Shown here: positions 2,603-46,736 of the stretch, piece by piece
Layout of the letters: each line of letters begins with the position of its first letter
Position numbering within the stretch: the first letter of the stretch is position 1
IMG/VR virus record: IMGVR_UViG_3300035181_001974
Length of the DNA stretch: 46,874 bases
Reading direction: 5' to 3' (one strand)
Source of the DNA: a virus
Program-made: the position numbers and the translations under genes
The notes under the pieces: generated by a model
Seen by the model: only the letters and a program-made list of their open reading frames with translations
Databases searched by the model: none
Told to the model about the DNA's origin: nothing

Positions 2603-3516
2603 AGCGACTCGATCAATTTTCTATAGGGCTCATAACCCGCGGGAAGTTTCCATGCCTCTACGTTGGGAATTGCCGGCGTAGCGTTGAAGACATCATCAGC
2701 AATTGCAGAGGAAGGCAACACCTGTTCTGCGATGCCGACTGGCCTGGAGACTACTGGCACATTGAGCAGGCCACACTCGATCAATGACTGCGGGCCTCCC
2801 TCGTGACGTGCGGTGACCGGGTAAAGGTCAAGCGTCTGGTAGAGTTCATTGACCGTCTCGTGCGGGGGCCGTTCCAGGTAAGTGTACGGGACGCCCGCCT
2901 CTTCTAGACGTCCAATCAGGTACTGACGTCGCCAACCTGCCAGGACCACGTGTACCTTATCGTCGCCGATGATGCCTCGTTGGCGATGCTTCCGGATGAT
3001 GAAATCTGCGAGTAGATCAGGGCCCTTTTCGAGCTTTGGGCTCTTCAGGTCCTTACCTTCTGTGTCACGTTGGAATGAACCGATGACGTAGGCATCTGTC
3101 GGAATCCCGTACTTCTGCCGCAGCAATCCCTTGTCCAACGTCGGCAGCCAGATCTTCTGGTTGGCCCAGTACTTGATGAGATGGATAGGCTTTTCAGTCA
3201 AGGGTCTAATGAACGAGTGCGTCCGTTCGTTGTAAACGTGATAGGCTGTGGTCACCAGGTCGCGTTGCCTGAAATCATCGAGTTCCTTGAACCCAAATTT
3301 CTCTGGTGTGATGTGATGAACTGTGGTGATCACCTTTTTGTAACGCAACAATCCCGCGTTCGATAGACCTTCCCAACACCAGTCGGCCAACAACCAAACA
3401 ACGTGAGCGTCCTTGGGATGATAGACGCTGATGTCGGCATTGTCTTCGTTCCATTCCTTGACGAAGCGGTCGACGATCCAGTCTTCTTTGGGAGGCAGCA
3501 CGTAAACCTTGTTCAT
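2599..3516 (-). CDS. putative GT-B fold glycosyltransferase
   Basis: C-terminal HEGGPQSLIECGLLNVPVVS resembles the GT1/GT4 E-x7-E region. Start/stop-coupled to its neighbours. Confidence 0.4.
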   Translation of the reverse strand: MNKVYVLPPKEDWIVDRFVKEWNEDNADISVYHPKDAHVVWLLADWCWEGLSNAGLLRYKKVITTVHHITPEKFGFKELDDFRQRDLVTTAYHVYNERTHSFIRPLTEKPIHLIKYWANQKIWLPTLDKGLLRQKYGIPTDAYVIGSFQRDTEGKDLKSPKLEKGPDLLADFIIRKHRQRGIIGDDKVHVVLAGWRRQYLIGRLEEAGVPYTYLERPPHETVNELYQTLDLYPVTARHEGGPQSLIECGLLNVPVVSRPVGIAEQVLPSSAIADDVFNATPAIPNVEAWKLPAGYEPYRKLIESL

Positions 3517-4445
3517 GCGAGTACCGATTCGAACAGTTCAATGTAGCGCCGCGTGACATTCTTGATGTCGATGTCGGCGATGCTGGTATAGTCGAGATCG
3601 CGACGGTCTGGCAGGTCTTCGACCTGCCTCACATCGATCATGGGTGGATTATCGTAGTCCTCAAGCGTGTAGTCGTACGGCTGCTCCTGTAGGACGTGGC
3701 CATAAGAGCCGATGAGTTCCTTGGTTCCACCCACGGATGCGCATGCCACGGGAGTTCCTTGTGACAGAGCTTCTACGACAACGTTGGGGCAATGGTCAGC
3801 CCACGCTAGATGCAGCATCCATGAGGCTGCAGCATACACCTGCATGTAGACATCGGGACCAACAGGACCAGTGTAGAAGACGTGTGGGTCTGCCACACGC
3901 ACGTCAGGGTCCTTACCCATAATGATCAGGGCGCTGTTGGGCCGCTTCTCGCGGAGGTGCATGTAGAGTTCAACGTTTGACTTGAGGCGCTTCTGTGGGT
4001 GCCAATTCGAGCTGCAGACGTAGATGCGCTCATAATCATGCACCAATTTGCTCAGCGCCGGAATGGTCAACTCCTTGAGAGGCACCGTGTCGATCCCGTT
4101 GCGGATGACGGTGTGCCGGGTGACGCCTCCCCACCACTTCTCAACGAAGTTGCGATCAAATTCCGACTGAAAGACGACGGCGTCGGCGGCGCCGTACAAC
4201 GCCTTGATGTTCGAGTTCTTGGTGTGAAACTCTTCGGGTTTGAACCAGACGCCGTCTAGGCGCTGGACGACTTTCTTGGCAAGGGGTGCCCCACTGCGTT
4301 CGATGAAGACCAGTGAAACGTCGGCCTCGGCTACCGAGAGCGTCACCTCGTGTCCGCTCTCGAACAACCCACGGGCTAGGCGGCCTGCGAAGGTGTTGGG
4401 GCCGGACAAAGAGTTGAAATTGACACCGTCGAAGTGCACCTTCAT
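3513..4445 (-). CDS. glycosyltransferase family 4 (GT-B)
   Basis: NVVVEALSQGTPVACASVGGTKELI resembles the GT4 EGFGLVLLEAMACGLPVIA donor-binding motif. Confidence 0.65.
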   Translation of the reverse strand: MKVHFDGVNFNSLSGPNTFAGRLARGLFESGHEVTLSVAEADVSLVFIERSGAPLAKKVVQRLDGVWFKPEEFHTKNSNIKALYGAADAVVFQSEFDRNFVEKWWGGVTRHTVIRNGIDTVPLKELTIPALSKLVHDYERIYVCSSNWHPQKRLKSNVELYMHLREKRPNSALIIMGKDPDVRVADPHVFYTGPVGPDVYMQVYAAASWMLHLAWADHCPNVVVEALSQGTPVACASVGGTKELIGSYGHVLQEQPYDYTLEDYDNPPMIDVRQVEDLPDRRDLDYTSIADIDIKNVTRRYIELFESVLA

Positions 4446-34079: not shown

Positions 34080-34496
34080 ATGGCCGCCAAGAAAGCACCC
34101 GTCAAGCGTAAGCGCCGGAAGCGCAAGGGTCACTACATCACGGGGACATACACCTCGACGAAGACGGGCGCGGCGTGTAAGTATCGCTCTGGATGGGAGC
34201 TCAAGTTCATGGAGTACCTCGACGGTGAGGCTTCAGTGAAGACCTGGTGGTACGAGGCATTTACCATCGACTACATCAGTAACAAAAAGACGGGCCGCGT
34301 TCGCCGTTATATCCCAGACTTCAAGATCGAGTATGATGATGGTCGCATCGAGGTGGTCGAAATCAAGCCTTCCAAGCGGTTGACCCGTCCGACGGTTGTC
34401 AAGAAGCTAGAGGCCGCTGGAATATGGTGCCGTGATCACGGCGTGGCCCTCCGAGTAATCACAGAGCGTGAATTGAAGGGCCTAGGTCTATTGTAA
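34080..34496 (+). CDS. PD-(D/E)XK Holliday-junction resolvase, T7 endonuclease I family, with a polybasic N-terminal tail
   Basis: YRSGWELKF...YIPDFKIEYDDGRIEVVEIKP matches T7 gp3 FRSGLEDKV...YTPDFLLPNGIFVETKG. N-terminus MAAKKAPVKRKRRKRKG. Confidence 0.65.
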   Translation: MAAKKAPVKRKRRKRKGHYITGTYTSTKTGAACKYRSGWELKFMEYLDGEASVKTWWYEAFTIDYISNKKTGRVRRYIPDFKIEYDDGRIEVVEIKPSKRLTRPTVVKKLEAAGIWCRDHGVALRVITERELKGLGLL

Positions 34497-36198: not shown

Positions 36199-36852
36199 AT
36201 GCTCAAGATAGCACATATTGCAGACGTGCACTGGCGAGGCCTTTCGCGGCACGATGAGTACCGTGAGGTCTTTGATGCCTTTGTCAAGGACGTCAAGGAT
36301 CAGGGGATCGAGCACATCTTTGTCGGTGGCGACATCTTCCATACCAAGACGACGGGCCTTAGCCCAGAGTACATCGATGAGTTGACGAGGTGGCTCAAGT
36401 CAATGTCATCGGTCGCCGAGGTTCACTTGACGCTCGGAAATCATGACGGGAACCTTGTCAACCTCTCGCGACAGGATGCTGTCACTCCCATCGTCGAGGC
36501 ATTGAAGGACCCGATGATTCATCTCTACAAGCAGAGCGGTTGCTATGAGTTCTCACCGGGTTACGTTTGGTGCATCTACAGCCTCTTTGATGTTGAAGGT
36601 TGGGCAGCAGTCAAACCGCTACCCGGTAAGATCAACATTGCGTGTTATCACGGACCGGTGTACGGTGCGCGGACGGAGACCGATTGGTTGATCGAGGAAG
36701 GTCTCAATCTTGACTTTTTCAAAGATTATGATTTTGCCCTCCTGGGCGACATCCATAAGTTGCAGTTCCTTCGCTCTCGTGAAGTTGAACTTGTGATCGA
36801 TGAAGGCGACCTCGACAAATACCCAGGCGCCACCGTCCTCGGAGACGCATGA
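36199..36852 (+). CDS. sbcD: SbcD/Mre11-family nuclease, phosphoesterase core only (217 aa)
   Basis: Calcineurin-fold motifs HIADVHW, GGDIFH, GNHD, YHGPV, GDIHK. It ends just after the last His motif, where full-length SbcD continues with the capping domain. Confidence 0.7.
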   Translation: MLKIAHIADVHWRGLSRHDEYREVFDAFVKDVKDQGIEHIFVGGDIFHTKTTGLSPEYIDELTRWLKSMSSVAEVHLTLGNHDGNLVNLSRQDAVTPIVEALKDPMIHLYKQSGCYEFSPGYVWCIYSLFDVEGWAAVKPLPGKINIACYHGPVYGARTETDWLIEEGLNLDFFKDYDFALLGDIHKLQFLRSREVELVIDEGDLDKYPGATVLGDA

Positions 36853-39434
36853 GCAAGAAAGTTCGTATCAAGGTTAACCAGGGTTGGATTGCATACCCGG
36901 GTTCGACAGTCCAGCAGAACTACGCGGAAGACCTGGTACACGGGTACTTGAGCTGGTCGATCAAGGATCGTAACAGCTTTAGCGTGGATTTCAGGCAGCT
37001 GCCCAACCCGAAGCCTTTTGTTACCGTCGACTGGGAAGGTGACGTCAAGAAGACGTTCGAGGTTGCTAGCACATATCCTCATGGTTCACGGTTTAGGATC
37101 AAGAGTCGCACGCACGTCGCGCAACAAGAAGTCCAGTCGTTGACATCGATGCTGAAGCAGACGATGAATGCGACGGAAGTCACCTTCAAAGTTGACCAGC
37201 ACATCAACAAGGAAACGCTAACGGCTGGCACTCAGACGCTGGCCCGAGCGGACCTACGCAATCCTGACATCCTGATGGGCCTGATTCGCAACTACCACGT
37301 AGACTCAAACTACCCGGATGAAGTCTGGACCCGCGTCGGTGAGCAGGTCAAGACATACCTCGCCGCTGTTACTGGCATGGAGGAGGCTCCGCGGAACACG
37401 AAGTGGTCTCTCCGTGACTTGAAGTTTGACAATGTCTTTGCCTACGGCGAGGGCAATCACATCAACTTTGACGGGCTCGAGGGCATCGTTGGCATCTTCG
37501 GTCAGAACCGCGCCGGCAAGTCGTCAATCGTCGGCTCGATCATGTACTCGCTGTTCAACAGTACTGACCGCGGTTCGATCAAGAACCTGCACGTCATCAA
37601 CGCTCGCAAGCCCTACTGCTACACTCGTGCCATCGTCAACGTTGGAGGCACCGATTACGTCTTCGAGCGTCAGACTGTCAAACACGAGAATGCTCGGAGA
37701 GGCATTGTTCACGCAGTCACTTCATTGAATGCGTACCGTGTCACAGAATCTGGCGACGTTATCGACCTAGCGGGTGAACAGCGAAATGACACCGAAAAGG
37801 TCATCAGAAACCTCATCGGCAGCCAAGACGACTTCTTGTTGACCTCGCTTTCGGCACAAGGTGAGATCAATCAGTTCATTCAGCAGGGTTCCTCGCGCCG
37901 CCGGCAGATCTTGTCGCGGTTCCTCGACCTCGACGTCTTTGACAGGATGTACGACCTAGCCAACAAGGATGTCAACAACGCTAAGGCACAGCTGCGTGCC
38001 TATCCCGACAAGGATTGGAATCAGGTTGCCACTGACCTGAAGTCAAAGCTCGAAAAGTTGTCGGCAGCCATCGACGACAAGACGTACAAGGAGCAGGAGG
38101 CCGCAGAGCGTCTAGCTGAGGTTCGTGCTCAGCTCGCTCGTCACAGTGACTTCACACCAGTTAGCAAGTCGCAGGTCGAATCGCAACGTAACAAGGTCAT
38201 CACTCTGGAGCGTCAGGTGGCGTCTGTTGCCGCCAAGATCGTCGACCTCCGCGTGGAGATCGGCAAGATTGAAGGCAAGGTGTCGACGATCGACACCCTC
38301 AAGGAAGAACACGACATCGAAGAGTTGAAGAAGCGCCTGAAGGCGTTCAACGCCCTTGAGTCGACTGTCGTATCGTTGAAGCACTCTCACGAGAAGGAAG
38401 CCGCTCTGTTGAAGCAACAGGAGCGTTCCCTGAAGATCCTTGATGACGTCCCGTGTGGCGACAAGTTCCCAACCTGCAAGTTCATCAAGGATGCACACTT
38501 TGTCAAAGGCAAGATCGAATCGCAACGTGACAAGACTGGTCGCGCCTTGGAGAAGCTTGACCGAGCCGCCGTCTCGTTGGACGAACTGAAGACGGAAAAC
38601 ATTCGAGACAAAGTCGAGAAGATTCAGAAGTTGCATGAGCTTCACTCGCGGTTGAAGGTCGAGCTATCAAACAAGCAAATCGAACTGGTGAAGCTCGAGA
38701 CGCAGCAAGAGACCCAGATCTCCAGTCTTGAGATTTCTAAGGCCAAGCTGGATGAACTAGAAGAGGCTCTGAAAAATGACGAAAATGCAGAGGTGGTTTC
38801 CCTCCGCACTGAAATTGATGAACTCACGGCGGTCATTGCGAGGCTCGACGGGGAGAAGATGACAGCCGCCGCCGACAAAGGTAAGCTTATTTCGGACGCA
38901 GAAAAAGCATTGAATGAGAAGAAGAACCGCGAGACCCTCTTGCAGGGCATGAAGGTCTATGAGCTCGTTGCCAACGCCTTTTCACGAAAGGGAATCCCGA
39001 GCGTAATCGTGACATCGCAGTTGCCGGTCATCAACGCAGAGATCGCCAAGATCTTGACTGGCATTGTTGACTTCACGGTAGAACTCGAGGTTGACCCAGA
39101 GTCTGACTGGATGGACGTCTACATCAACTACGGCGACTCACGGCGAATCGTTGAGTTGGGTTCAGGCATGGAGAAGATGATCAGCTCGATCGCCATCCGT
39201 GTGGCGCTGATCAACGTCTCGTCGCTGCCCAAGACTGACATGTTCATCCTGGATGAGGGCTTTGGTGCACTGGACGACGCTGGCGTCGAGGCTTGCAATC
39301 GTTTGTTGTCTTCGTTGAAGCGCCACTTCAGAACGGTCATGATTATCACTCACGTTGATGGCGTCAAGGATTCTGCCGACACCGTTCTTGAGATCACCAA
39401 GAATGAAAAGGACACCAAGGTAGTCTACGAGTGA
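36849..39434 (+). CDS. sbcC: SbcC/Rad50-family ATPase whose N-terminal ~190 aa resemble the C-terminal (capping) domain of SbcD/Mre11
   Basis: Walker A GIFGQNRAGKSSIVGSI at about residue 215. Long coiled coil. C-terminal signature/Walker B MFILDEGFGALDDAG. N-terminal IAYPGSTVQQNYAED aligns with E. coli SbcD VRYSGSPLAMSFSE. Confidence 0.75.
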   Translation: MSKKVRIKVNQGWIAYPGSTVQQNYAEDLVHGYLSWSIKDRNSFSVDFRQLPNPKPFVTVDWEGDVKKTFEVASTYPHGSRFRIKSRTHVAQQEVQSLTSMLKQTMNATEVTFKVDQHINKETLTAGTQTLARADLRNPDILMGLIRNYHVDSNYPDEVWTRVGEQVKTYLAAVTGMEEAPRNTKWSLRDLKFDNVFAYGEGNHINFDGLEGIVGIFGQNRAGKSSIVGSIMYSLFNSTDRGSIKNLHVINARKPYCYTRAIVNVGGTDYVFERQTVKHENARRGIVHAVTSLNAYRVTESGDVIDLAGEQRNDTEKVIRNLIGSQDDFLLTSLSAQGEINQFIQQGSSRRRQILSRFLDLDVFDRMYDLANKDVNNAKAQLRAYPDKDWNQVATDLKSKLEKLSAAIDDKTYKEQEAAERLAEVRAQLARHSDFTPVSKSQVESQRNKVITLERQVASVAAKIVDLRVEIGKIEGKVSTIDTLKEEHDIEELKKRLKAFNALESTVVSLKHSHEKEAALLKQQERSLKILDDVPCGDKFPTCKFIKDAHFVKGKIESQRDKTGRALEKLDRAAVSLDELKTENIRDKVEKIQKLHELHSRLKVELSNKQIELVKLETQQETQISSLEISKAKLDELEEALKNDENAEVVSLRTEIDELTAVIARLDGEKMTAAADKGKLISDAEKALNEKKNRETLLQGMKVYELVANAFSRKGIPSVIVTSQLPVINAEIAKILTGIVDFTVELEVDPESDWMDVYINYGDSRRIVELGSGMEKMISSIAIRVALINVSSLPKTDMFILDEGFGALDDAGVEACNRLLSSLKRHFRTVMIITHVDGVKDSADTVLEITKNEKDTKVVYE

Positions 39435-39448
39435 TGTAAGATCGCTCG

Positions 39449-39751
39449 GTGGATCGTCAACCGTACCTACGTGACCGTCTGATCTCTCGGAGACCGGGCG
39501 GTTACTGCGTTATCGTTCCGTGTGAGGCCTCCCCGAGCGTGCCGCTGTCCTGTGCTGTCTGTGGGACGGTGATGAGAACGCAAGACGATGAGGCAGCGTG
39601 GCATGAATTTGCCTGCTGCAATCGTTGCGCCTTGGCTTGGGCTGCCCCGAGGCGCAAGGAATGGGCTGCTGGCTGGCGACCCGAACGCGCCGCGTTGGAT
39701 GCTGAGGTCGCAGGTAGGCCTCCGTTGGTCGTCGACCTCGAGATCGACTGA
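39449..39751 (+). CDS. hypothetical Cys-rich protein in a locally GC-rich segment (GTG start)
   Basis: CAVCG...CCNRC motifs. Local GC is about 65-67% against about 56% around it. Antisense ORFs pile up here, as expected at high GC. Confidence 0.35.
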   Translation: MDRQPYLRDRLISRRPGGYCVIVPCEASPSVPLSCAVCGTVMRTQDDEAAWHEFACCNRCALAWAAPRRKEWAAGWRPERAALDAEVAGRPPLVVDLEID

Positions 39752-42224: not shown

Positions 42225-45200
42225 ATGGCAAAAAAAGAAGCACCTCAAAGCCTTTTCCGACGACTGACGCGACTGTTTCGAAGTGGTCCTGTCATCAAGA
42301 AGAAGATCCGCACCGCCGACACGACGATCGCGGTCGCTGACAAGACTAAGTCGTCAGGCACGTTGCTCTTTCAGAAGTCGCTGGCGCCGACCTACGCGAC
42401 CATCACGGCAAATGCCTACAACCTGAGCGAGCGCTTGATGCGCTATCAGGACTTTCAAGAAATGGAGTATTCACTTGCGATTGACACTAAGATCGCAACC
42501 TCAGATGGTTTCAAGACTATAGGTGAGCTAGCGCAAGAGTGTGAGAAAAATCCGGATCACATCTTCATTGTCTATTCGTACGATCACAATTTGAAGCGCA
42601 TCGTTCCGGCGTTCGGTAAACAGGCTCGTCAGACCTGTGTCGATAGTGCCTGGAAGATCAAATTTGATAATGGAAAAGAGATTGTTGCATCACCGGAACA
42701 TCGACTGATGCTTCGTGACGGTACATACCGTCGTGTTGAGGACCTGAAACCCGGCGATGCAATGATGCCCTTCTACCGCAAAGACATCTTTGCTGATGCC
42801 AAAGAAGGCACCCTTGGCTACTCGTGGATCTACACGATGGACGATAGGTTCCGCGGTTGGACCAAAGAGCACCAACTGATCGCTGAGTGGGTTGCCGGTC
42901 GTCAGCTCAACGAAGATGAGGTTGTCCACCACATCAACTTCATTAAGACTGATAATCGTCCTGAAAATCTCAGGATCATGACGAAGTCTGCCCATGACAG
43001 TTACCACGCCGCGATCAACAACGGGGTGAAGTGGGCACCCGAAAACCGTGAGTGGATCGAAGAGTTCAAGAAGAACCATGCAGCTCGGATGCGTGACAAT
43101 GCTCCTGGCGCTCGCAGGGATGTGACTTTTGCTCGAATCCTAGAGACTGCTGAACGTGTTGGTTTCAGCATGCCGGCGATTGCAAATGCTCTTGATGTCA
43201 CATGGAACCTGATCTATGAACGATTGGCGACCCACGGATTCTCAACGTTCAATAAATTTGTTGCGGCATATGCTGGCGGTCAAGCTGATTCTATGATCAA
43301 CAACCGACCCGGTCTACTGACACGGGACTTGAGCCTCGAGCTATTGAAGTCTTCGATGACTGCTGGTGACACGAAGCGTTCTTTGTGCATTAAGCTCGGT
43401 TGCACTGTCAACGTACTTGACAAGTTTTTGGCCCGCCGCGCCCGGATGTCGTGGACAGAGTTGCGTTCAACAATGGGGTATCACGACGAGGAAGTGACCG
43501 TCAATCAGATTAAGAGCGTCCGAAAGGGCGGTCGTCCACGAGGTTCGAACGGTAATTCACTGACGTTCCAACAGATCTGTGATGCATATACACCCAGCGT
43601 GACGTTGCCTCGTCTCGCCGAAAAGCTTGGCGCCAACAAGAACACGATTATCTCCAGGTTGTCGCAGAATGGCTTCAAGAAGTTTAGTGACTTTCAGGAG
43701 ACTTACAACAACTGTAAGGTAGTTTCCGTTGAGTATGTCGGTGAGATCCCTCTCTACGACCTCACCGTTGACGGGTACAAGAACTTTGCCACCGATAGTG
43801 TGATCTCGCACAATACTCCTGAGATCGCGGCTGCTCTTGACATCTATGCCGACGAAACGTGTGCACAGGATGAGAAAGGCCGCGTCCTCCACATTTACTC
43901 GGACAATGAGAAGATTCGCGAGGTGCTCGAGGACCTTTTCTACAATACGTTGAACACCGAGTTCAACCTGCGATCCTGGGCGCGCAATCTTGTTAAGTAC
44001 GGCGACTTCTTCCTCTATAATGACGTTTCTCCAACGTACGGAGTCGTCTCAGCGTTCCCGATCCCTGTCAACGAGATCGAGCGCGAAGAGAACTACGATC
44101 GTGACGATCCGTTTGCGGTCAGGTATCGCTGGGTCACCCTAGGTAATCGAGTCCTCGAGAACTGGGAGATCACTCACTTTCGGCTCTTGGGCAACGACAT
44201 GTTCTTGCCTTACGGGTCATCGATCATTGAGCCTGCCCGCCGCATTTGGCGTCAGTTGATCCTCATCGAAGATGCAATGTTGGTGTACCGCGTCGTCAGG
44301 GCACCTGAACGCCGCGTCTTCTACATCGACGTTGCCAACGTTCCAGCGCAGGACGTGCCTCTTTATGTTGAAGAGCAGAGGAAGAACCTCAGGACGAATC
44401 AGGTCATTGATCGCTCTTCTGGTCGTGTGGACCTCAGGTACAATCCACTGTGCTTCGCAGCGAACGTTCAGATACCATTGTTGGATGGTAGGATGCTGCG
44501 GATCGATGAGCTAGTCAAGGAGTGGAATGAAGGGCGCCGAGACCATGAGACTTATTCCCTTGATCTCGAAGCGGGGGGTAGGTTGGTACCCGGCAAGGTG
44601 ATCTGGGCCGGGAAGTCAGGTACTACGAAACAGTTTGTCAGGGTGACGCTGGACGACGGCGGCGTCATCAATGTCACACCTGAACATAGGATGATGCTTC
44701 GTGATGGTTCTCACGTTAAAGCGAAGGATCTACGTTCGGGCGACAGCTTGATGCCGTTGCACGTTACATATGCACCGATGTCAGGCGCTGAAGTTTCTGA
44801 AGTTGACAAGCACTGTTACGAAAAGGTGCTCGATCCATCGTTCGGAACACGCATCTTTACCCACGAGTTGATCGCGGCTCATGCGTTCGGGCTCGAGGTC
44901 TATCGGAACGGGCACATCTCACAGCAGGGAAAGACAATTCATCACGTCAACTTTGACAAGCTCAACAACTCAACTGGCAACCTGCAGTTGATAACGAACG
45001 CTGAGCATTACGTCAAACGTTCTGAAGCGATGTCTACGATGTGGGCTGACCCTGAACGAAGGGAGCGTGCCCGACAGAACATGCGCTATGTTTGGTCGCC
45101 TGAGTGCCAGGTCTACGTTATCAACGTCATCAGATCGCTTCGTAGGTTCGAGGGGCTCGATGCGTTCCTGAGACGGTTGAAGTCCGACGTAACGTTCATG

Positions 45201-46736
45201 AAGCTCTACGCAGCAACGAACGCTCATCTGGCTCACGATCTCGCGAAATCGCTGCATAAAAACGTCGTCGGTAAGTTCATCATCGCCGATTACCTTAACT
45301 GGAAGGCAGTTTGGGCTGCGCACCATCCTGCGGCCTTGGGTCGTCAGTACGTCAACAACGTTGACACCGGCGTTGTTGCTTCTGACGGTGCGAACAACCA
45401 CGTCGTCATTTCTGTTGAGCTCATCGATACAACTGAAGATGTGTACAGTGTTACCGTTGATCGATGGCACAATCTTGCCGTGGGTGGTGAAAATGCTGCG
45501 AAAGGTGCACAATCACCTCATGGTGGTGGTGGTGGTGTAGGACTAATATTTGCGTTTCAGAGCGTCGATGAGGACTACTTCATCCCAGTTCGTGGCCAAG
45601 AGTCTGGAACTCGCATTGAAACCCTCGCGGGAGGCCAGAACACTGCCGCCGTCGAGGACGTGGCCTACATTCAGAAGAAGCTGTTTGCTGCTCTGAAGAT
45701 CCCACGCGCCTACTTGGGTTACGATGAGATGCTTAGCAGCAAGGCCACGTTGGCGCAGGAGGACATCAGGTTCTCGCGTACCATTGCTGTCATTCAGAAG
45801 ACGATCCTTGCCGAGCTCAACAAGCTGGCGATCATCCACCTCTATGCACACGGGTATGACGGTGATGATCTGCAGAACTTTACGTTGCATCTGTCCAACC
45901 CGTCGACTGTCGCACAGCAACAGAAGCTAGAACTGTGGCGTGCCAAGTTTGAGATCGGCGGCTCGGCCCCTGAAGGCTTCATTGATAAGGACTTTGTCCG
46001 CAAGGAGATCTGGGGCCTCAACGATCAGGAGTGCAAGCAGATCGACAAGAATCGCATGAAAGATAAGGTCGTTGACGCAGCCATCGAGTCCGGCGCGGGT
46101 GCTGGAGGGGATGGCGGCGGGGGAGGCGAAGACCTCTTTGGCGGCGGCGATGAAGGTGGAGGCGGTGAGGAACCCGCAGGCGGAGAAGAGACGCCTCCCG
46201 AGGAAAACGCAGGTGAGGAACCAGAAGAGGAGACCACGCCTGGTGTTCAGCTCCTGACGTCAGCTGACGACAATGATGACGATGAGACATTTGGGCTCCG
46301 CGTCGGCGCCATGAAGGACGTCGAGATTCCAGTCAAGGCTCAGAAGCAGCTTGACCGCGTGCTCTACAACCGTAGCCGTCACTTGACGCACGGACCGTCT
46401 AAGACGCACATGCCTGACTTCAGGAAGATGACTTCGACTGACAATCGAGCGATGGAGGATCCTTACGATACCGACTTCTTGAAGTCTGTCGTCAGCGACC
46501 CATTCGGCGAAAGCGTCGCACGTCAGCAGCGGCTTCCTGGCGACGTGGTCGCTGCGTTGCTAAGTTGGGAAAAGAAGTTCCCTGGTGAGCGCGGATCGAA
46601 GAATGGTTTGATAAAAGAGGACCAAGAGATCAACATCGAGATTGATGAGTCGATCGAACCGGGTCTGACAGGCAGCGCCATTAACGAAGGCGATGTACTT
46701 ATCATCGATGATGACAACGAGGATGACGAGTCATGA
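42225..46736 (+). CDS. portal protein, T4 gp20-like, interrupted by two HNH-containing inteins (precursor 1503 aa; mature about 685 aa)
   Basis: Extein [44 protein letters not shown] aligns with T4 gp20 [55 protein letters not shown] aligns with [22 protein letters not shown]. Acidic, Gly-rich C-terminus. Confidence 0.85.
   Translation: [1503 protein letters not shown]
42471..43814 (+). mobile_element. intein 1 (448 aa, Ser1 ... His-Asn, +1 Thr) with an HNH homing-endonuclease domain
   Basis: Block A [43 protein letters not shown]..H. Block G [20 protein letters not shown] followed by T. Confidence 0.75.
44451..45560 (+). mobile_element. intein 2 (about 370 aa, Cys1) with an HNH domain, paralogous to intein 1; non-canonical C-terminal junction
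   Basis: Block A [43 protein letters not shown]. Block G-like [16 protein letters not shown] is followed by a 24-residue Gly-rich extension ...[13 protein letters not shown] before the extein Ser. The 3' boundary is inferred from alignment to T4 gp20. Confidence 0.55.

What the first reader, a model, noticed from the sequence alone, without database searches (positions are those of the whole stretch)
36199..39434. SbcD/SbcC boundary falls inside the Mre11 fold, with an imperfect 20-nt direct repeat at the junction
The sbcD ORF (217 aa) stops right after the last phosphoesterase His motif (GDIHK). The sbcC ORF begins with about 190 aa that precede its Walker A. This N-terminal stretch includes IAYPGSTVQQNYAED, which matches the conserved SbcD segment following the His motif (E. 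coli VRYSGSPLAMSFSE), so the Mre11 capping-domain equivalent appears fused to Rad50. Around the ATGA junction, ATACCCAGGCGCCACCGTCC (36819-36838) is imperfectly repeated as ATACCCGGGTTCGACAGTCC (36893-36912), a 15/20 match, and both copies encode YPG[AS]TV. Removing the 74 nt between the two TAC codons would join the sbcD frame in-frame to the sbcC frame. That would give a single Mre11-Rad50 polypeptide of about 1050 aa. Two readings are possible. An ancestral single-chain Mre11-Rad50 may have been split by a short duplication that created a stop and an SD-ATG restart. Alternatively this is a genuinely unusual domain partition with a nuclease core plus a cap-Rad50.
Basis: partly seen in the sequence, partly recalled or inferred. 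Interest (0 to 1): 0.65.

Follow-up and report, generated by a model that had tools for sequence, protein, structure and literature searches.

The report
Mre11-Rad50 gene fractured by homing endonuclease
This phage's DNA-repair nuclease Mre11 is cut in two in the middle of its fold, with the second half fused to Rad50. This is most likely the scar left when a selfish endonuclease gene invaded an originally single Mre11-Rad50 gene and was later lost, a kind of event already described once in 2009.

Summary
The main observation holds. The 217-aa SbcD ORF (36199-36852) ends 31 residues after the last His motif. The first ~190 residues of the 861-aa SbcC ORF (36849-39434) are the rest of Mre11: its last nuclease strands, the cap and the Rad50-binding helices. 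The 15/20 DNA repeat exists but is not special.

Relatives explain the split. Most of this phage family encode one Mre11-Rad50 chain of ~1050 aa. The window's clade and at least 8 other scattered lineages are broken at the same hairpin. Each carries a conserved acidic tail on the first piece and a basic head on the second.

In four related loci a free-standing nuclease gene (TnsA-like domain) sits exactly in the break. In a fifth only a remnant of it is left. The window is the endonuclease-free end state. It is fixed in hundreds of contigs, under purifying selection, with overlapping stop and start codons.

A short duplication, recoding, an intein and an assembly error are not supported. Dassa et al. 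2009 described one such SbcD-like fractured locus, and Yoshida et al. 2011 described the fusion family. This is therefore a new member of a known kind, of moderate interest.

The parts
36199..36852 (+). First piece (217 aa): the Mre11/SbcD phosphoesterase core with all metal-binding motifs. These are D9-x-H11 (36223-36231), GGD (36325-36333), GNHD (36436-36447), H151 (36646-36654) and GDIH (36745-36756).
   Evidence: ORF. Pfam Metallophos 1.5e-11. Invariant motif residues in alignment A1. Motif coordinates.
36781..36849 (+). Acidic C-terminal tail EVELVIDEGDLDKYPGATVLGDA (aa 195-217). It is absent from most fused relatives. Family consensus: R[DE]VEL[VI]IDE.DL.KYPGAEVIE.
   Evidence: Conserved in 119 of 120 close homologues. 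Codon-position divergence 0.38/0.22/0.67. Net charge -6, family mean -7. The model gives strand-helix-strand at pLDDT ~80-83.
36841..36852 (+). Restart signals: GGAG (36841-36844), then ATG overlapping TGA as ATGA (36849-36852).
   Evidence: Read from the sequence. In all 10 split loci examined the start codon overlaps or abuts the stop.
36849..36884 (+). Basic N-terminal head MSKKVRIKVNQG of the second piece. It is absent from most fused relatives. Family consensus: M.KK[VI]RIK.KKP.
   Evidence: Net charge +4, family mean +4.5. Modelled as a long strand (concatenated residues 221-233) beside the tail strands.
36885..37418 (+). Remainder of Mre11, carried on the Rad50 polypeptide (SbcC aa 13-190). 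It comprises WIAYPGSTVQQNYAED (the last nuclease-domain strands), the capping domain and the helices equivalent to the Rad50-binding helix-loop-helix.
   Evidence: The profile aligns positions 177-353 to T. maritima Mre11 residues 202-373. The model of both pieces joined matches E. coli SbcD over 370-450 columns, E ~1e-12.
37419..39434 (+). Rad50/SbcC ATPase. Walker A is at 37500-37523, then coiled coil, a hook-like PCGDKFPTC at 38451-38477, signature SGMEK at 39162-39176, Walker B ILDEGFG at 39246-39266 and ITHV at 39345-39356.
   Evidence: Pfam AAA_23 1.7e-10, SMC_N 7e-6 (below its cut-off), SbcC_Walker_B 0.003 (below its cut-off). Coordinates.
36819..36838 (+). It encodes (K)YPGATV within the tail.
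36893..36912 (+). Second copy of the 20-nt segment. It encodes (A)YPGSTV, the genuine conserved Mre11 YPGS motif.

Best explanation
The window carries a fractured single-chain Mre11-Rad50 gene.

Origin (inferred from comparison):
- The ancestral gene in this phage family encodes one polypeptide of about 1050 aa: Mre11 nuclease, cap, linker helices, then Rad50.
- A free-standing homing-endonuclease-like gene inserted into the tip of the beta-hairpin between the last His motif (GDIH) and the YPGS strand. It has N-terminal zinc-finger DNA-binding modules and a C-terminal TnsA-like PD-(D/E)xK nuclease domain.
- The insertion broke the gene into a 217-aa nuclease core and an 861-aa cap-Rad50 protein.
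- In the window's lineage the endonuclease gene was later deleted, which left two abutting, translationally coupled ORFs.

How the two pieces work (inferred from a structure model):
- They are made as separate proteins.
- The acidic tail of piece 1 and the basic head of piece 2 form a small charge-complementary beta-sheet 'wing'. This wing extends the original hairpin and rebuilds one Mre11 fold without any covalent joining.

Shown here: the fused ancestry, the common break point, the endonuclease in the break in relatives, the conservation of tail and head, and the Mre11 identity of the SbcC N-terminus.

Inferred, not shown: the order of events, the enzyme's activity, and the non-covalent reassembly.
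For: 1. Fused relatives.
- Mel-JY01 has one 1066-aa ORF after a primase, the same gene order as the window.
- Seventeen viral-contig loci hold single stop-free reading frames of 1051-1066 codons (1044-1054 aa from the start codon) and are 47-70% identical in the nuclease part.
- Among the best 150 of 2586 family representatives, nearly all are 1000-1100 aa.

2. Same break point. The window clade, L002, L043, L046 and L050, plus representatives P0247, P0270, P0330, P0350, P0353 and P0381, all stop about 25-35 residues after GDIH. The second pieces of L002, L043, L046 and L050 restart about 10 residues before YPGS.

3. Endonuclease in the break.
- L007 is 73% identical to the window's SbcD and has a 306-aa ORF between the halves.
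- L002 has a homologous 305-aa ORF (38% identity). L043 and L046 have one too.
- These ORFs match Pfam Tn7_TnsA-like_N and a PHROG endonuclease family.
- L050 keeps only a ~58-aa remnant of the nuclease domain between the halves.
- The same gene family sits between the primase gene and an intact fused gene in L036-L042 and L047/48.

4. Tail and head are real protein.
- The tail is conserved in 119 of 120 homologues.
- Third-codon-position divergence far exceeds second-position divergence.
- An HMM of the window clade's tail ranks the L043, L050 and L002 tails as the top 3 of 2334 six-frame segments, with E = 1.5e-5, 3e-3 and 0.06.
- Mean net charges are -7 for tails and +4.5 for heads.

5. Structure.
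- The concatenated SbcD + SbcC(1-230) model has pLDDT 85.9.
- Strand 189-201, helix 202-207, strand 212-217 and strand 221-233 span the junction.
- The model matches full SbcD/Mre11 structures, and the profile alignment to T. maritima Mre11 crosses the break.

6. Precedent.
- Dassa et al. 2009 (PMC2677866) reported a metagenomic SbcD-like gene fractured by a free-standing endonuclease gene. It has 25 extra C-terminal and 9 extra N-terminal residues at the break and no intein.
- Their model includes later loss of the endonuclease.
Against: - The window itself has no endonuclease gene or recognisable remnant at the junction. The cause is inferred from relatives.
- Within the window's clade only 1 of about 11 distinct loci (L007) holds the endonuclease. 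That could be a later re-invasion of a gene that was already split.
- Several fused proteins carry the tail-linker-head 'wing' in frame: P0249, P0285, P0145, P0386 and L042. The wing may therefore predate the break, and the break could in principle have arisen without the endonuclease.
- The trees are neighbour-joining on about 183-407 positions, without support values.
- The structure model was made on an artificial covalent concatenation, which favours a hairpin across the junction.
- No homing, cleavage or enzyme activity has been tested.
- Dassa's endonuclease is called Vsr-like. Ours matches TnsA-like_N in Pfam, and identity of the two was not checked.
Confidence: 0.72

Rival explanations
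1. Wing first. The tail-linker-head segment is an old, vertically inherited insertion domain in the hairpin of the fused protein. It was lost many times. The gene was broken at the wing tip later, by the endonuclease or simply by a stop and restart mutation. Under this view the tail and head are not carried by the mobile element.
For: - In-frame wings occur in fused proteins P0249 (next to the window clade in the tree), P0285 and P0145, and in P0386 and L042 (next to split L043).
- Wing sub-types (YPGA-like versus GW-like) roughly follow host lineage.
- The loop length at this hairpin varies from 10 to 24 aa in fused forms, so it is an insertion-tolerant spot.
Against: - Wings and splits are scattered in at least 8 places among neighbours with short loops. 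That pattern needs many independent precise losses.
- Repair of an endonuclease cut would copy tail, endonuclease gene and head together.
- L042 has a Met exactly where the head would start, and its linker resembles the end of the L002 tail. This fits a re-fusion scar.
Confidence: 0.3
2. A short local duplication of the YPGxTV-coding segment introduced a stop codon and an SD-ATG restart into the fused gene.
For: There is a 15/20 direct match 74 nt apart, and both copies encode YPG[AS]TV. YPGA is common in the clade's tails.
Against: - Matches of this quality occur about 0.9 times per kb in the window.
- The same segments match only 7-14 of 20 in relatives.
- The clade consensus is YPGAEV, not YPGATV. 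Distant tails read KYETDGW, KYLNSGW and QYIKNGW.
- The insert relative to fused relatives is about 34 residues with no resemblance to the flanking sequence.
Confidence: 0.05
3. Recoding. Ribosomes make one polypeptide by frameshifting, stop-codon readthrough or a T4 gene-60-like hop from GCA (36847-36849) over 41 nt to GCA (36891-36893).
For: The window has a matched GCA...GCA pair flanking the stop and the head. L006 has the two ORFs in the same frame, separated by a single TGA.
Against: - The matched codon pair is absent in 9 of 9 other split loci.
- The relative frame of the two ORFs is 0, 1 or 2 in different loci, and stop and start codons vary.
- The head that would be skipped is under protein-level selection.
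- The junction RNA has no notable structure, z = -0.5.
- There is no slippery heptamer before the stop.
Confidence: 0.03
4. A sequencing or assembly error, or a decaying pseudogene.
For: None beyond the unusual boundary.
Against: There are 395 homologues of the 217-aa piece, and the best 120 are all 214-233 aa from independent assemblies. Both pieces and the junction peptides show purifying selection.
Confidence: 0.01
5. The tail and head are halves of a split intein that splices the two pieces together, as in the intein-type fractured genes.
For: The arrangement matches fractured genes: piece 1, endonuclease gene, piece 2 (PMC2677866). Opposite charges on the two halves are also typical of split inteins (my own knowledge).
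Against: The tail plus head total about 34 residues, too short for a Hint fold. There is no Cys, Ser or Thr nucleophile at either junction (...RSR|EVEL and ...NQG|WIAY). No Pfam intein match was found. The model shows a simple three-stranded sheet with one short helix. Dassa et al. also noted that their SbcD-like locus has no intein.
Confidence: 0.02

Closest known systems
SbcD-like fractured gene from Lake Gatun metagenome (Dassa et al. 2009, PMC2677866)
   Same: An SbcD-like gene is broken between consecutive conserved motifs, with a free-standing PD-(D/E)xK-type endonuclease gene in the break. It has about 25 extra C-terminal and about 9 extra N-terminal residues at the break and no intein. 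The endonuclease 3' end overlaps the start of the downstream piece. This is the L002, L007 and L043 state.
   Different: - The window has lost the endonuclease gene, and the pieces overlap by ATGA.
- That paper had one locus and did not note that the second piece continues into Rad50.
- Their endonuclease is called Vsr-like, while ours matches TnsA-like_N in Pfam. Sequence identity of the two loci could not be checked because no supplement text is held.
Genes in pieces made by free-standing homing endonucleases: Aeh1 nrdA/mobE, T4 genes 39/60 with mobA, split gene 43 of Aeromonas phages 25 and 44RR (review PMC2988022)
   Same: A contiguous phage DNA-metabolism gene is split into two polypeptides by insertion of an endonuclease gene, and the pieces must reassemble. 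Phage 44RR shows a split without an endonuclease gene, like the window.
   Different: The endonuclease family differs (HNH or GIY-YIG there). The host gene differs. Here, conserved charge-complementary tail and head peptides accompany the break in many lineages.
Natural Mre11/Rad50 fusion proteins (Mimivirus R555 and aquatic viral metagenome homologues; Yoshida, Claverie and Ogata 2011, PMC3175470)
   Same: An N-terminal Mre11-like nuclease is fused to a C-terminal Rad50-like ATPase in one chain, with Asp in place of the first His of the last motif (GDIH). The family is abundant in aquatic viral metagenomes. One database hit (P0160) carries a GOS scaffold name and another (P0240) is named 'Megavirus chiliensis, partial' by its source.
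   Different: The window's version is secondarily split, and at a place that is not the Mre11/Rad50 domain boundary.
Canonical two-gene SbcD/SbcC (E. coli) and gp47/gp46 (T4)
   Same: There are two adjacent genes encoding a nuclease and an ATPase. All catalytic motifs are present, and the fold matches.
   Different: The canonical boundary lies after the Mre11 Rad50-binding helices. Here it lies inside the phosphoesterase domain, so the cap, the linker helices and two core strands travel with Rad50.

Membership tests
Mre11/SbcD nuclease | Calcineurin-type phosphoesterase motifs: DxH, GD, GNH[DE], H, and G[DH]xH | tested here: met
   D9/H11, G44/D45, G80-N81-H82, H151 and G183-D184-I185-H186 are invariant in A1. 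Pfam Metallophos 1.5e-11.
Mre11/SbcD nuclease | Complete fold on one polypeptide: nuclease domain, capping domain and Rad50-binding helices | tested here: not met
   The fold is complete only when the 217-aa piece is joined to SbcC residues 1-190. The pieces are separate ORFs.
Rad50/SbcC ABC ATPase | Walker A, signature motif, Walker B and H-loop separated by a long coiled coil | tested here: met
   GQNRAGKS, SGMEK, ILDEGFG and ITHV. Pfam AAA_23 1.7e-10. SMC_N and SbcC_Walker_B match below their cut-offs.
Rad50/SbcC ABC ATPase | CxxC zinc hook at the coiled-coil apex | tested here: inconclusive
   The window has PCGDKFPTC (C-x6-C) at aa 535-543, where L001 and L002 have CxxC. Metal binding was not tested.
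Single-chain Mre11/Rad50 fusion (R555-like) | Nuclease and ATPase in one open reading frame | tested here: not met
   A stop at 36850-36852 and a frame change separate the two ORFs in the window. Relatives L001, L003 and L016-L032 meet the feature.
Gene fractured by a free-standing homing endonuclease | Close relatives have the gene contiguous | tested here: met
   L016-L023 are fused and 61-70% identical in the nuclease part.
Gene fractured by a free-standing homing endonuclease | An endonuclease ORF lies between the two pieces | tested here: not met
   The window's pieces overlap by 4 nt, with no room for an ORF. The feature is met in L007, L002, L043 and L046, with a remnant in L050.
Gene fractured by a free-standing homing endonuclease | The inserted ORF is a site-specific nuclease that promotes its own spread | not testable with these tools
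   Only domain matches are available: Tn7_TnsA-like_N at 5.8e-6 (27.2 bits, just above the 26.5-bit cut-off) in L002 and 3.8e-5 (24.6 bits, just below it) in L007, ROS_MUCR zinc finger, and a PHROG endonuclease family. Its scattered distribution is consistent with mobility.
Gene fractured by a free-standing homing endonuclease | Both pieces are retained and functional | tested here: inconclusive
   Purifying selection and conservation of both pieces and of the junction peptides are seen. Enzyme activity was not tested.
Split-intein fractured gene | Intein N and C halves with catalytic Cys/Ser at the junction and a +1 nucleophile | tested here: not met
   The tail is 23 aa and the head 12 aa. 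There are no junction nucleophiles and no Pfam intein match.
Programmed translational bypass (T4 gene 60 type) | Conserved matched take-off and landing codons, a stop after take-off, and a take-off hairpin | tested here: not met
   A matched pair occurs only in the window and in 0 of 9 relatives. There is no stable junction structure, z = -0.5.

The most novel reading that the evidence does not exclude
The acidic tail and basic head may be part of the mobile element itself. They would act as a portable, splice-free 'protein zipper' that travels with the endonuclease gene. It would let the element settle inside the fold of an essential enzyme by holding the two halves together non-covalently. 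That would make it a functional alternative to introns and inteins. The in-frame wings in some fused proteins would then be healed scars of past invasions.
Probability: 0.35. Interest if true: 0.7.

Novelty: new member of a known kind. Interest (0 to 1): 0.42.

Why it matters
- It links two published observations. The 'SbcD-like' fractured gene of Dassa et al. 2009 appears to belong to the Mre11/Rad50 fusion family of Yoshida et al. 2011.
- One family shows every stage of an endonuclease's life cycle inside a coding gene: naive fused gene, invaded gene, decaying endonuclease, endonuclease-free split, and possibly a re-fused gene with a scar.
- The endonuclease-free split is stable in a large phage clade. 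A phosphoesterase fold can therefore be permanently divided at this hairpin.
- The ~23 + 12-residue charge-complementary peptides are a candidate natural split-protein tag.
- For annotation, the 217-aa 'SbcD' and 861-aa 'SbcC' should be read as Mre11 N-piece and Mre11 C-piece-Rad50, not as canonical subunits.

Tried and rejected
- A near-identity DNA search of the region against the phage collection found nothing.
- A word-index protein search with the SbcC N-terminal 194 aa found only 3 proteins, because of limited sensitivity on this poorly conserved stretch. The profile search and the exhaustive representative search replaced it.
- Cluster look-up for names or organisms of close homologues gave no names.
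- A literature search for 'Mre11-Rad50 fusion' with a loose term rule returned only generic phage papers.
- No supplement text is held for Dassa et al., so the Lake Gatun sequence could not be compared directly.
- Rejected on evidence: the duplication origin, bypass, frameshift or readthrough, a split intein, and an assembly artefact.
- I considered whether the window's own small TnsA-like ORF (34080-34496) is the relocated endonuclease. It is homologous only to the nuclease domain and lacks the DNA-binding part, so this stays open.
Full report
**1. What is in the window**

Two ORFs on the + strand overlap by ATGA: 36199..36852 (217 aa) and 36849..39434 (861 aa). A GGAG lies 4 nt before the ATG.

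The first ORF is a calcineurin-type phosphoesterase (Pfam Metallophos, 1.5e-11). In the second, the Rad50-type AAA_23 match begins only at residue 191, and Walker A is at residues 218-225.

The last His motif, GDIH, is at residues 183-186 of the first ORF, so that ORF ends 31 residues later.

Deleting 36820-36893 would indeed join the two frames into a 1053-aa chain.

Genes around the locus mark this as a phage: a primase-like ORF just upstream, and a T4-type large terminase and portal downstream.

**2. The N-terminus of 'SbcC' is the rest of Mre11**

I built a profile from fused relatives plus the window's two pieces (A1). It aligns to T. maritima Mre11 in two stretches. The second covers profile positions 177-353 against Mre11 residues 202-373. 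It therefore runs from GHIH across 'LTIYPGSLIRIDFGEE' into the capping and C-terminal helical regions.

An AlphaFold2 model of SbcD(1-217) joined to SbcC(1-230) was made with a 138-row alignment. It has mean pLDDT 85.9 and pTM 0.75. By Foldseek its best matches are E. coli SbcD and other Mre11 structures, with E about 1e-12 over 370-450 aligned columns.

The gene boundary falls inside the phosphoesterase domain, and the last core strands, the cap and the Rad50-binding helices are carried by the Rad50 polypeptide.

**3. The ancestral state is a single chain**

- Microcystis phage Mel-JY01 has one 1066-aa ORF right after a primase gene, and a huge uncultured phage has a 1202-aa one.
- Of the viral-contig loci recovered with the SbcD piece, 17 hold single stop-free reading frames of 1051-1066 codons (1044-1054 aa from the start codon). 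They are 47-70% identical to the window in the nuclease part. Thirteen are split like the window.
- In fused forms the loop between GDIH and YPGS is short. L019 reads 'GDIHKQQFLGYRDGKPWIGYPG'.
- The window has about 34 extra residues there, made of a tail, the stop/start and a head.
- An exhaustive search of 1.84 billion representatives gave 2586 family members. Among the best 150, the great majority are 1000-1100 aa and about eight are 219-231-aa split pieces.
- Natural Mre11/Rad50 fusions of this type were described by Yoshida, Claverie and Ogata (PMC3175470).

**4. The split is real, conserved and yields two proteins**

- There are 395 homologues of the 217-aa piece. The best 120 are all 214-233 aa and 67-83% identical.
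- Their tails follow the consensus R[DE]VEL[VI]IDE.DL.KYPGAEVIE.
- Between loci, third codon positions diverge far more than second positions. The values for positions 1/2/3 are 0.38/0.22/0.67 in the tail and 0.42/0.37/0.66 in the head. Both peptides are therefore translated and constrained.
- Junction geometry varies. Stops are TGA, TAA or TAG. Starts are ATG, GTG or TTG. The relative frame is 0, 1 or 2. In all 10 loci examined the start overlaps or abuts the stop, which suggests translational coupling.
- The matched GCA...GCA pair that could support a ribosome hop is unique to the window (0 of 9 relatives).
- The junction RNA is unstructured, with z = -0.5.

**5. What made the break**

In L007, which is 73% identical to the window's SbcD, a 306-aa ORF lies between the tail and the head. 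In the distantly related huge phage L002, a homologous 305-aa ORF lies at the same place (38% identity).

Both ORFs have a C-terminal TnsA-like PD-(D/E)xK nuclease domain (the L002 ORF scores just above Pfam's cut-off, the L007 ORF just below it). Their N-terminal parts differ: a ROS/MucR-type zinc finger in L007 (Pfam), and in L002 a cysteine-rich region (my reading of the sequence) that matches a PHROG family annotated as HNH endonuclease.

Searching viral contigs with these two proteins found:
- two more occupied breaks, in L043 and L046;
- one break that retains only a ~58-aa remnant of the nuclease domain, in L050;
- eight loci (five distinct sequences) where the same gene family sits between the primase gene and an intact fused gene.

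This is the usual behaviour of a free-standing homing endonuclease. It matches the 'transposition-like' insertions that split nrdA in phage Aeh1 and the topoisomerase gene in T4 (PMC2988022).

The window, with no ORF in the break, is most simply the endonuclease-free descendant.

**6. Tail and head**

- The tails of distant split loci are EELEIDESDLHKYETDGWRVK in L043, EMEIDEDDLEQYIKNGWEIIEE in L050 and EVEEMVVEEDELEKYLNSGWKL... in L002. They are homologous to the window clade's tail. An HMM of the clade's tail ranks exactly these three at the top of 2334 six-frame segments, with E = 1.5e-5, 3e-3 and 0.06.
- Heads share M.K(K)[IV][RK][IV][KR].
- Tails carry a mean net charge of -7 and heads +4.5.
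- In the model the junction region forms strand 189-201, helix 202-207, strand 212-217 and strand 221-233, at pLDDT about 80-83. I read this as a small sheet that lengthens the native hairpin and is closed by opposite charges.
- This is an inference. The model used an artificial covalent link, and I could not inspect coordinates.

**7. The DNA repeat**

Direct matches of at least 15/20 within 150 nt occur 41 times in this window, against about 9 in shuffled sequence. In ten related split loci the same two segments match only 7-14 of 20.

The clade consensus for the tail is YPGAEV, and distant tails have no YPG at all. The resemblance of the tail's YPGATV to the true YPGSTV motif is thus a local coincidence of two short, similar peptides with similar codon use. 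It is not a duplication footprint.

**8. Open point: where the wing came from**

Five fused proteins carry the tail-linker-head segment in frame. They are P0249 (next to the window clade in the tree), P0285, P0145, P0386 and L042 (next to split L043).

Either the wing is an older insertion that the endonuclease later targeted, or these are re-fused scars. For the second view, L042 has a Met exactly where a head would start, and its linker resembles the end of the L002 tail.

Split forms sit in at least 8 scattered places among short-loop neighbours. Repair of an endonuclease cut would copy the tail, the gene and the head together. I therefore lean toward the wing now travelling with the element. 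However, the trees are neighbour-joining without support values, so the matter is not settled.

**9. Comparison with the literature**

Dassa et al. 2009 (PMC2677866) reported one Lake Gatun locus in which an SbcD-like gene is fractured by a free-standing Vsr-like endonuclease gene, with no intein. It has 25 extra C-terminal and 9 extra N-terminal residues between consecutive conserved motifs. Their model includes later loss of the endonuclease.

That description matches the L002, L007 and L043 state almost number for number. The phenomenon is therefore known.

What this work adds:
- the endonuclease-free state fixed in a large clade;
- the recognition that the host is a Mre11-Rad50 fusion;
- the series of intermediate states;
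- the charge-complementary, structurally modelled wing.

**10. Verdict**

The main observation is confirmed, but the repeat is not meaningful. This is a new member of a known kind, of moderate interest (0.42).

Noticed in passing
window 42225-46736 (+): The 1503-aa T4-type portal protein (Portal_T4, 1.5e-61) also matches Intein_splicing (two stretches) and HNH_3 (two stretches). The portal gene therefore appears to host one or two inteins with HNH endonuclease domains.
   Followed up: no
window 34080-34496 (+): A 138-aa stand-alone TnsA-like nuclease ORF (PF08722, 1.8e-14) lies two genes upstream of sbcD. It is 36-41% identical to the nuclease domain of the endonuclease found in the break in L007 and L002, but it lacks the zinc-finger part. 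It could be a resident small nuclease or a relative of the lost element.
   Followed up: partly
window 38451-38477 (+): At the apex of the Rad50 coiled coil the window, and L007 likewise, has PCGDKFPTC (C-x6-C). Distant fused or split relatives L001 and L002 have a CxxC hook there.
   Followed up: no
L042 4261-4450; proteins P0249, P0285, P0145, P0386: These fused Mre11-Rad50 proteins carry the tail-linker-head 'wing' in frame, with 45-54 residues between GDIH and YPGS. They are either precursors of the split or re-fused scars.
   Followed up: partly
L050 2965-3189: Only a truncated remnant of the endonuclease gene lies between the two halves. It keeps the nuclease core ...RRWYIPDFLIEYKNGKKVLEEVKGYV... 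with no N-terminal part. This looks like a decay intermediate.
   Followed up: yes
L036-L042, L047, L048 (about 2950-3900 in each locus): The same endonuclease family sits in the intergenic position between the primase gene and an intact fused Mre11-Rad50 gene. This neighbourhood therefore seems to be its usual home.
   Followed up: partly
L006 4655-4660: In this relative the two pieces are in the same frame, separated only by TGA followed by GTG. Stop-codon readthrough there would give a fused protein. This is not so in the window.
   Followed up: no
window 39449-39751 (+): A 100-aa cysteine-rich ORF between sbcC and the terminase region has no Pfam match.
   Followed up: no
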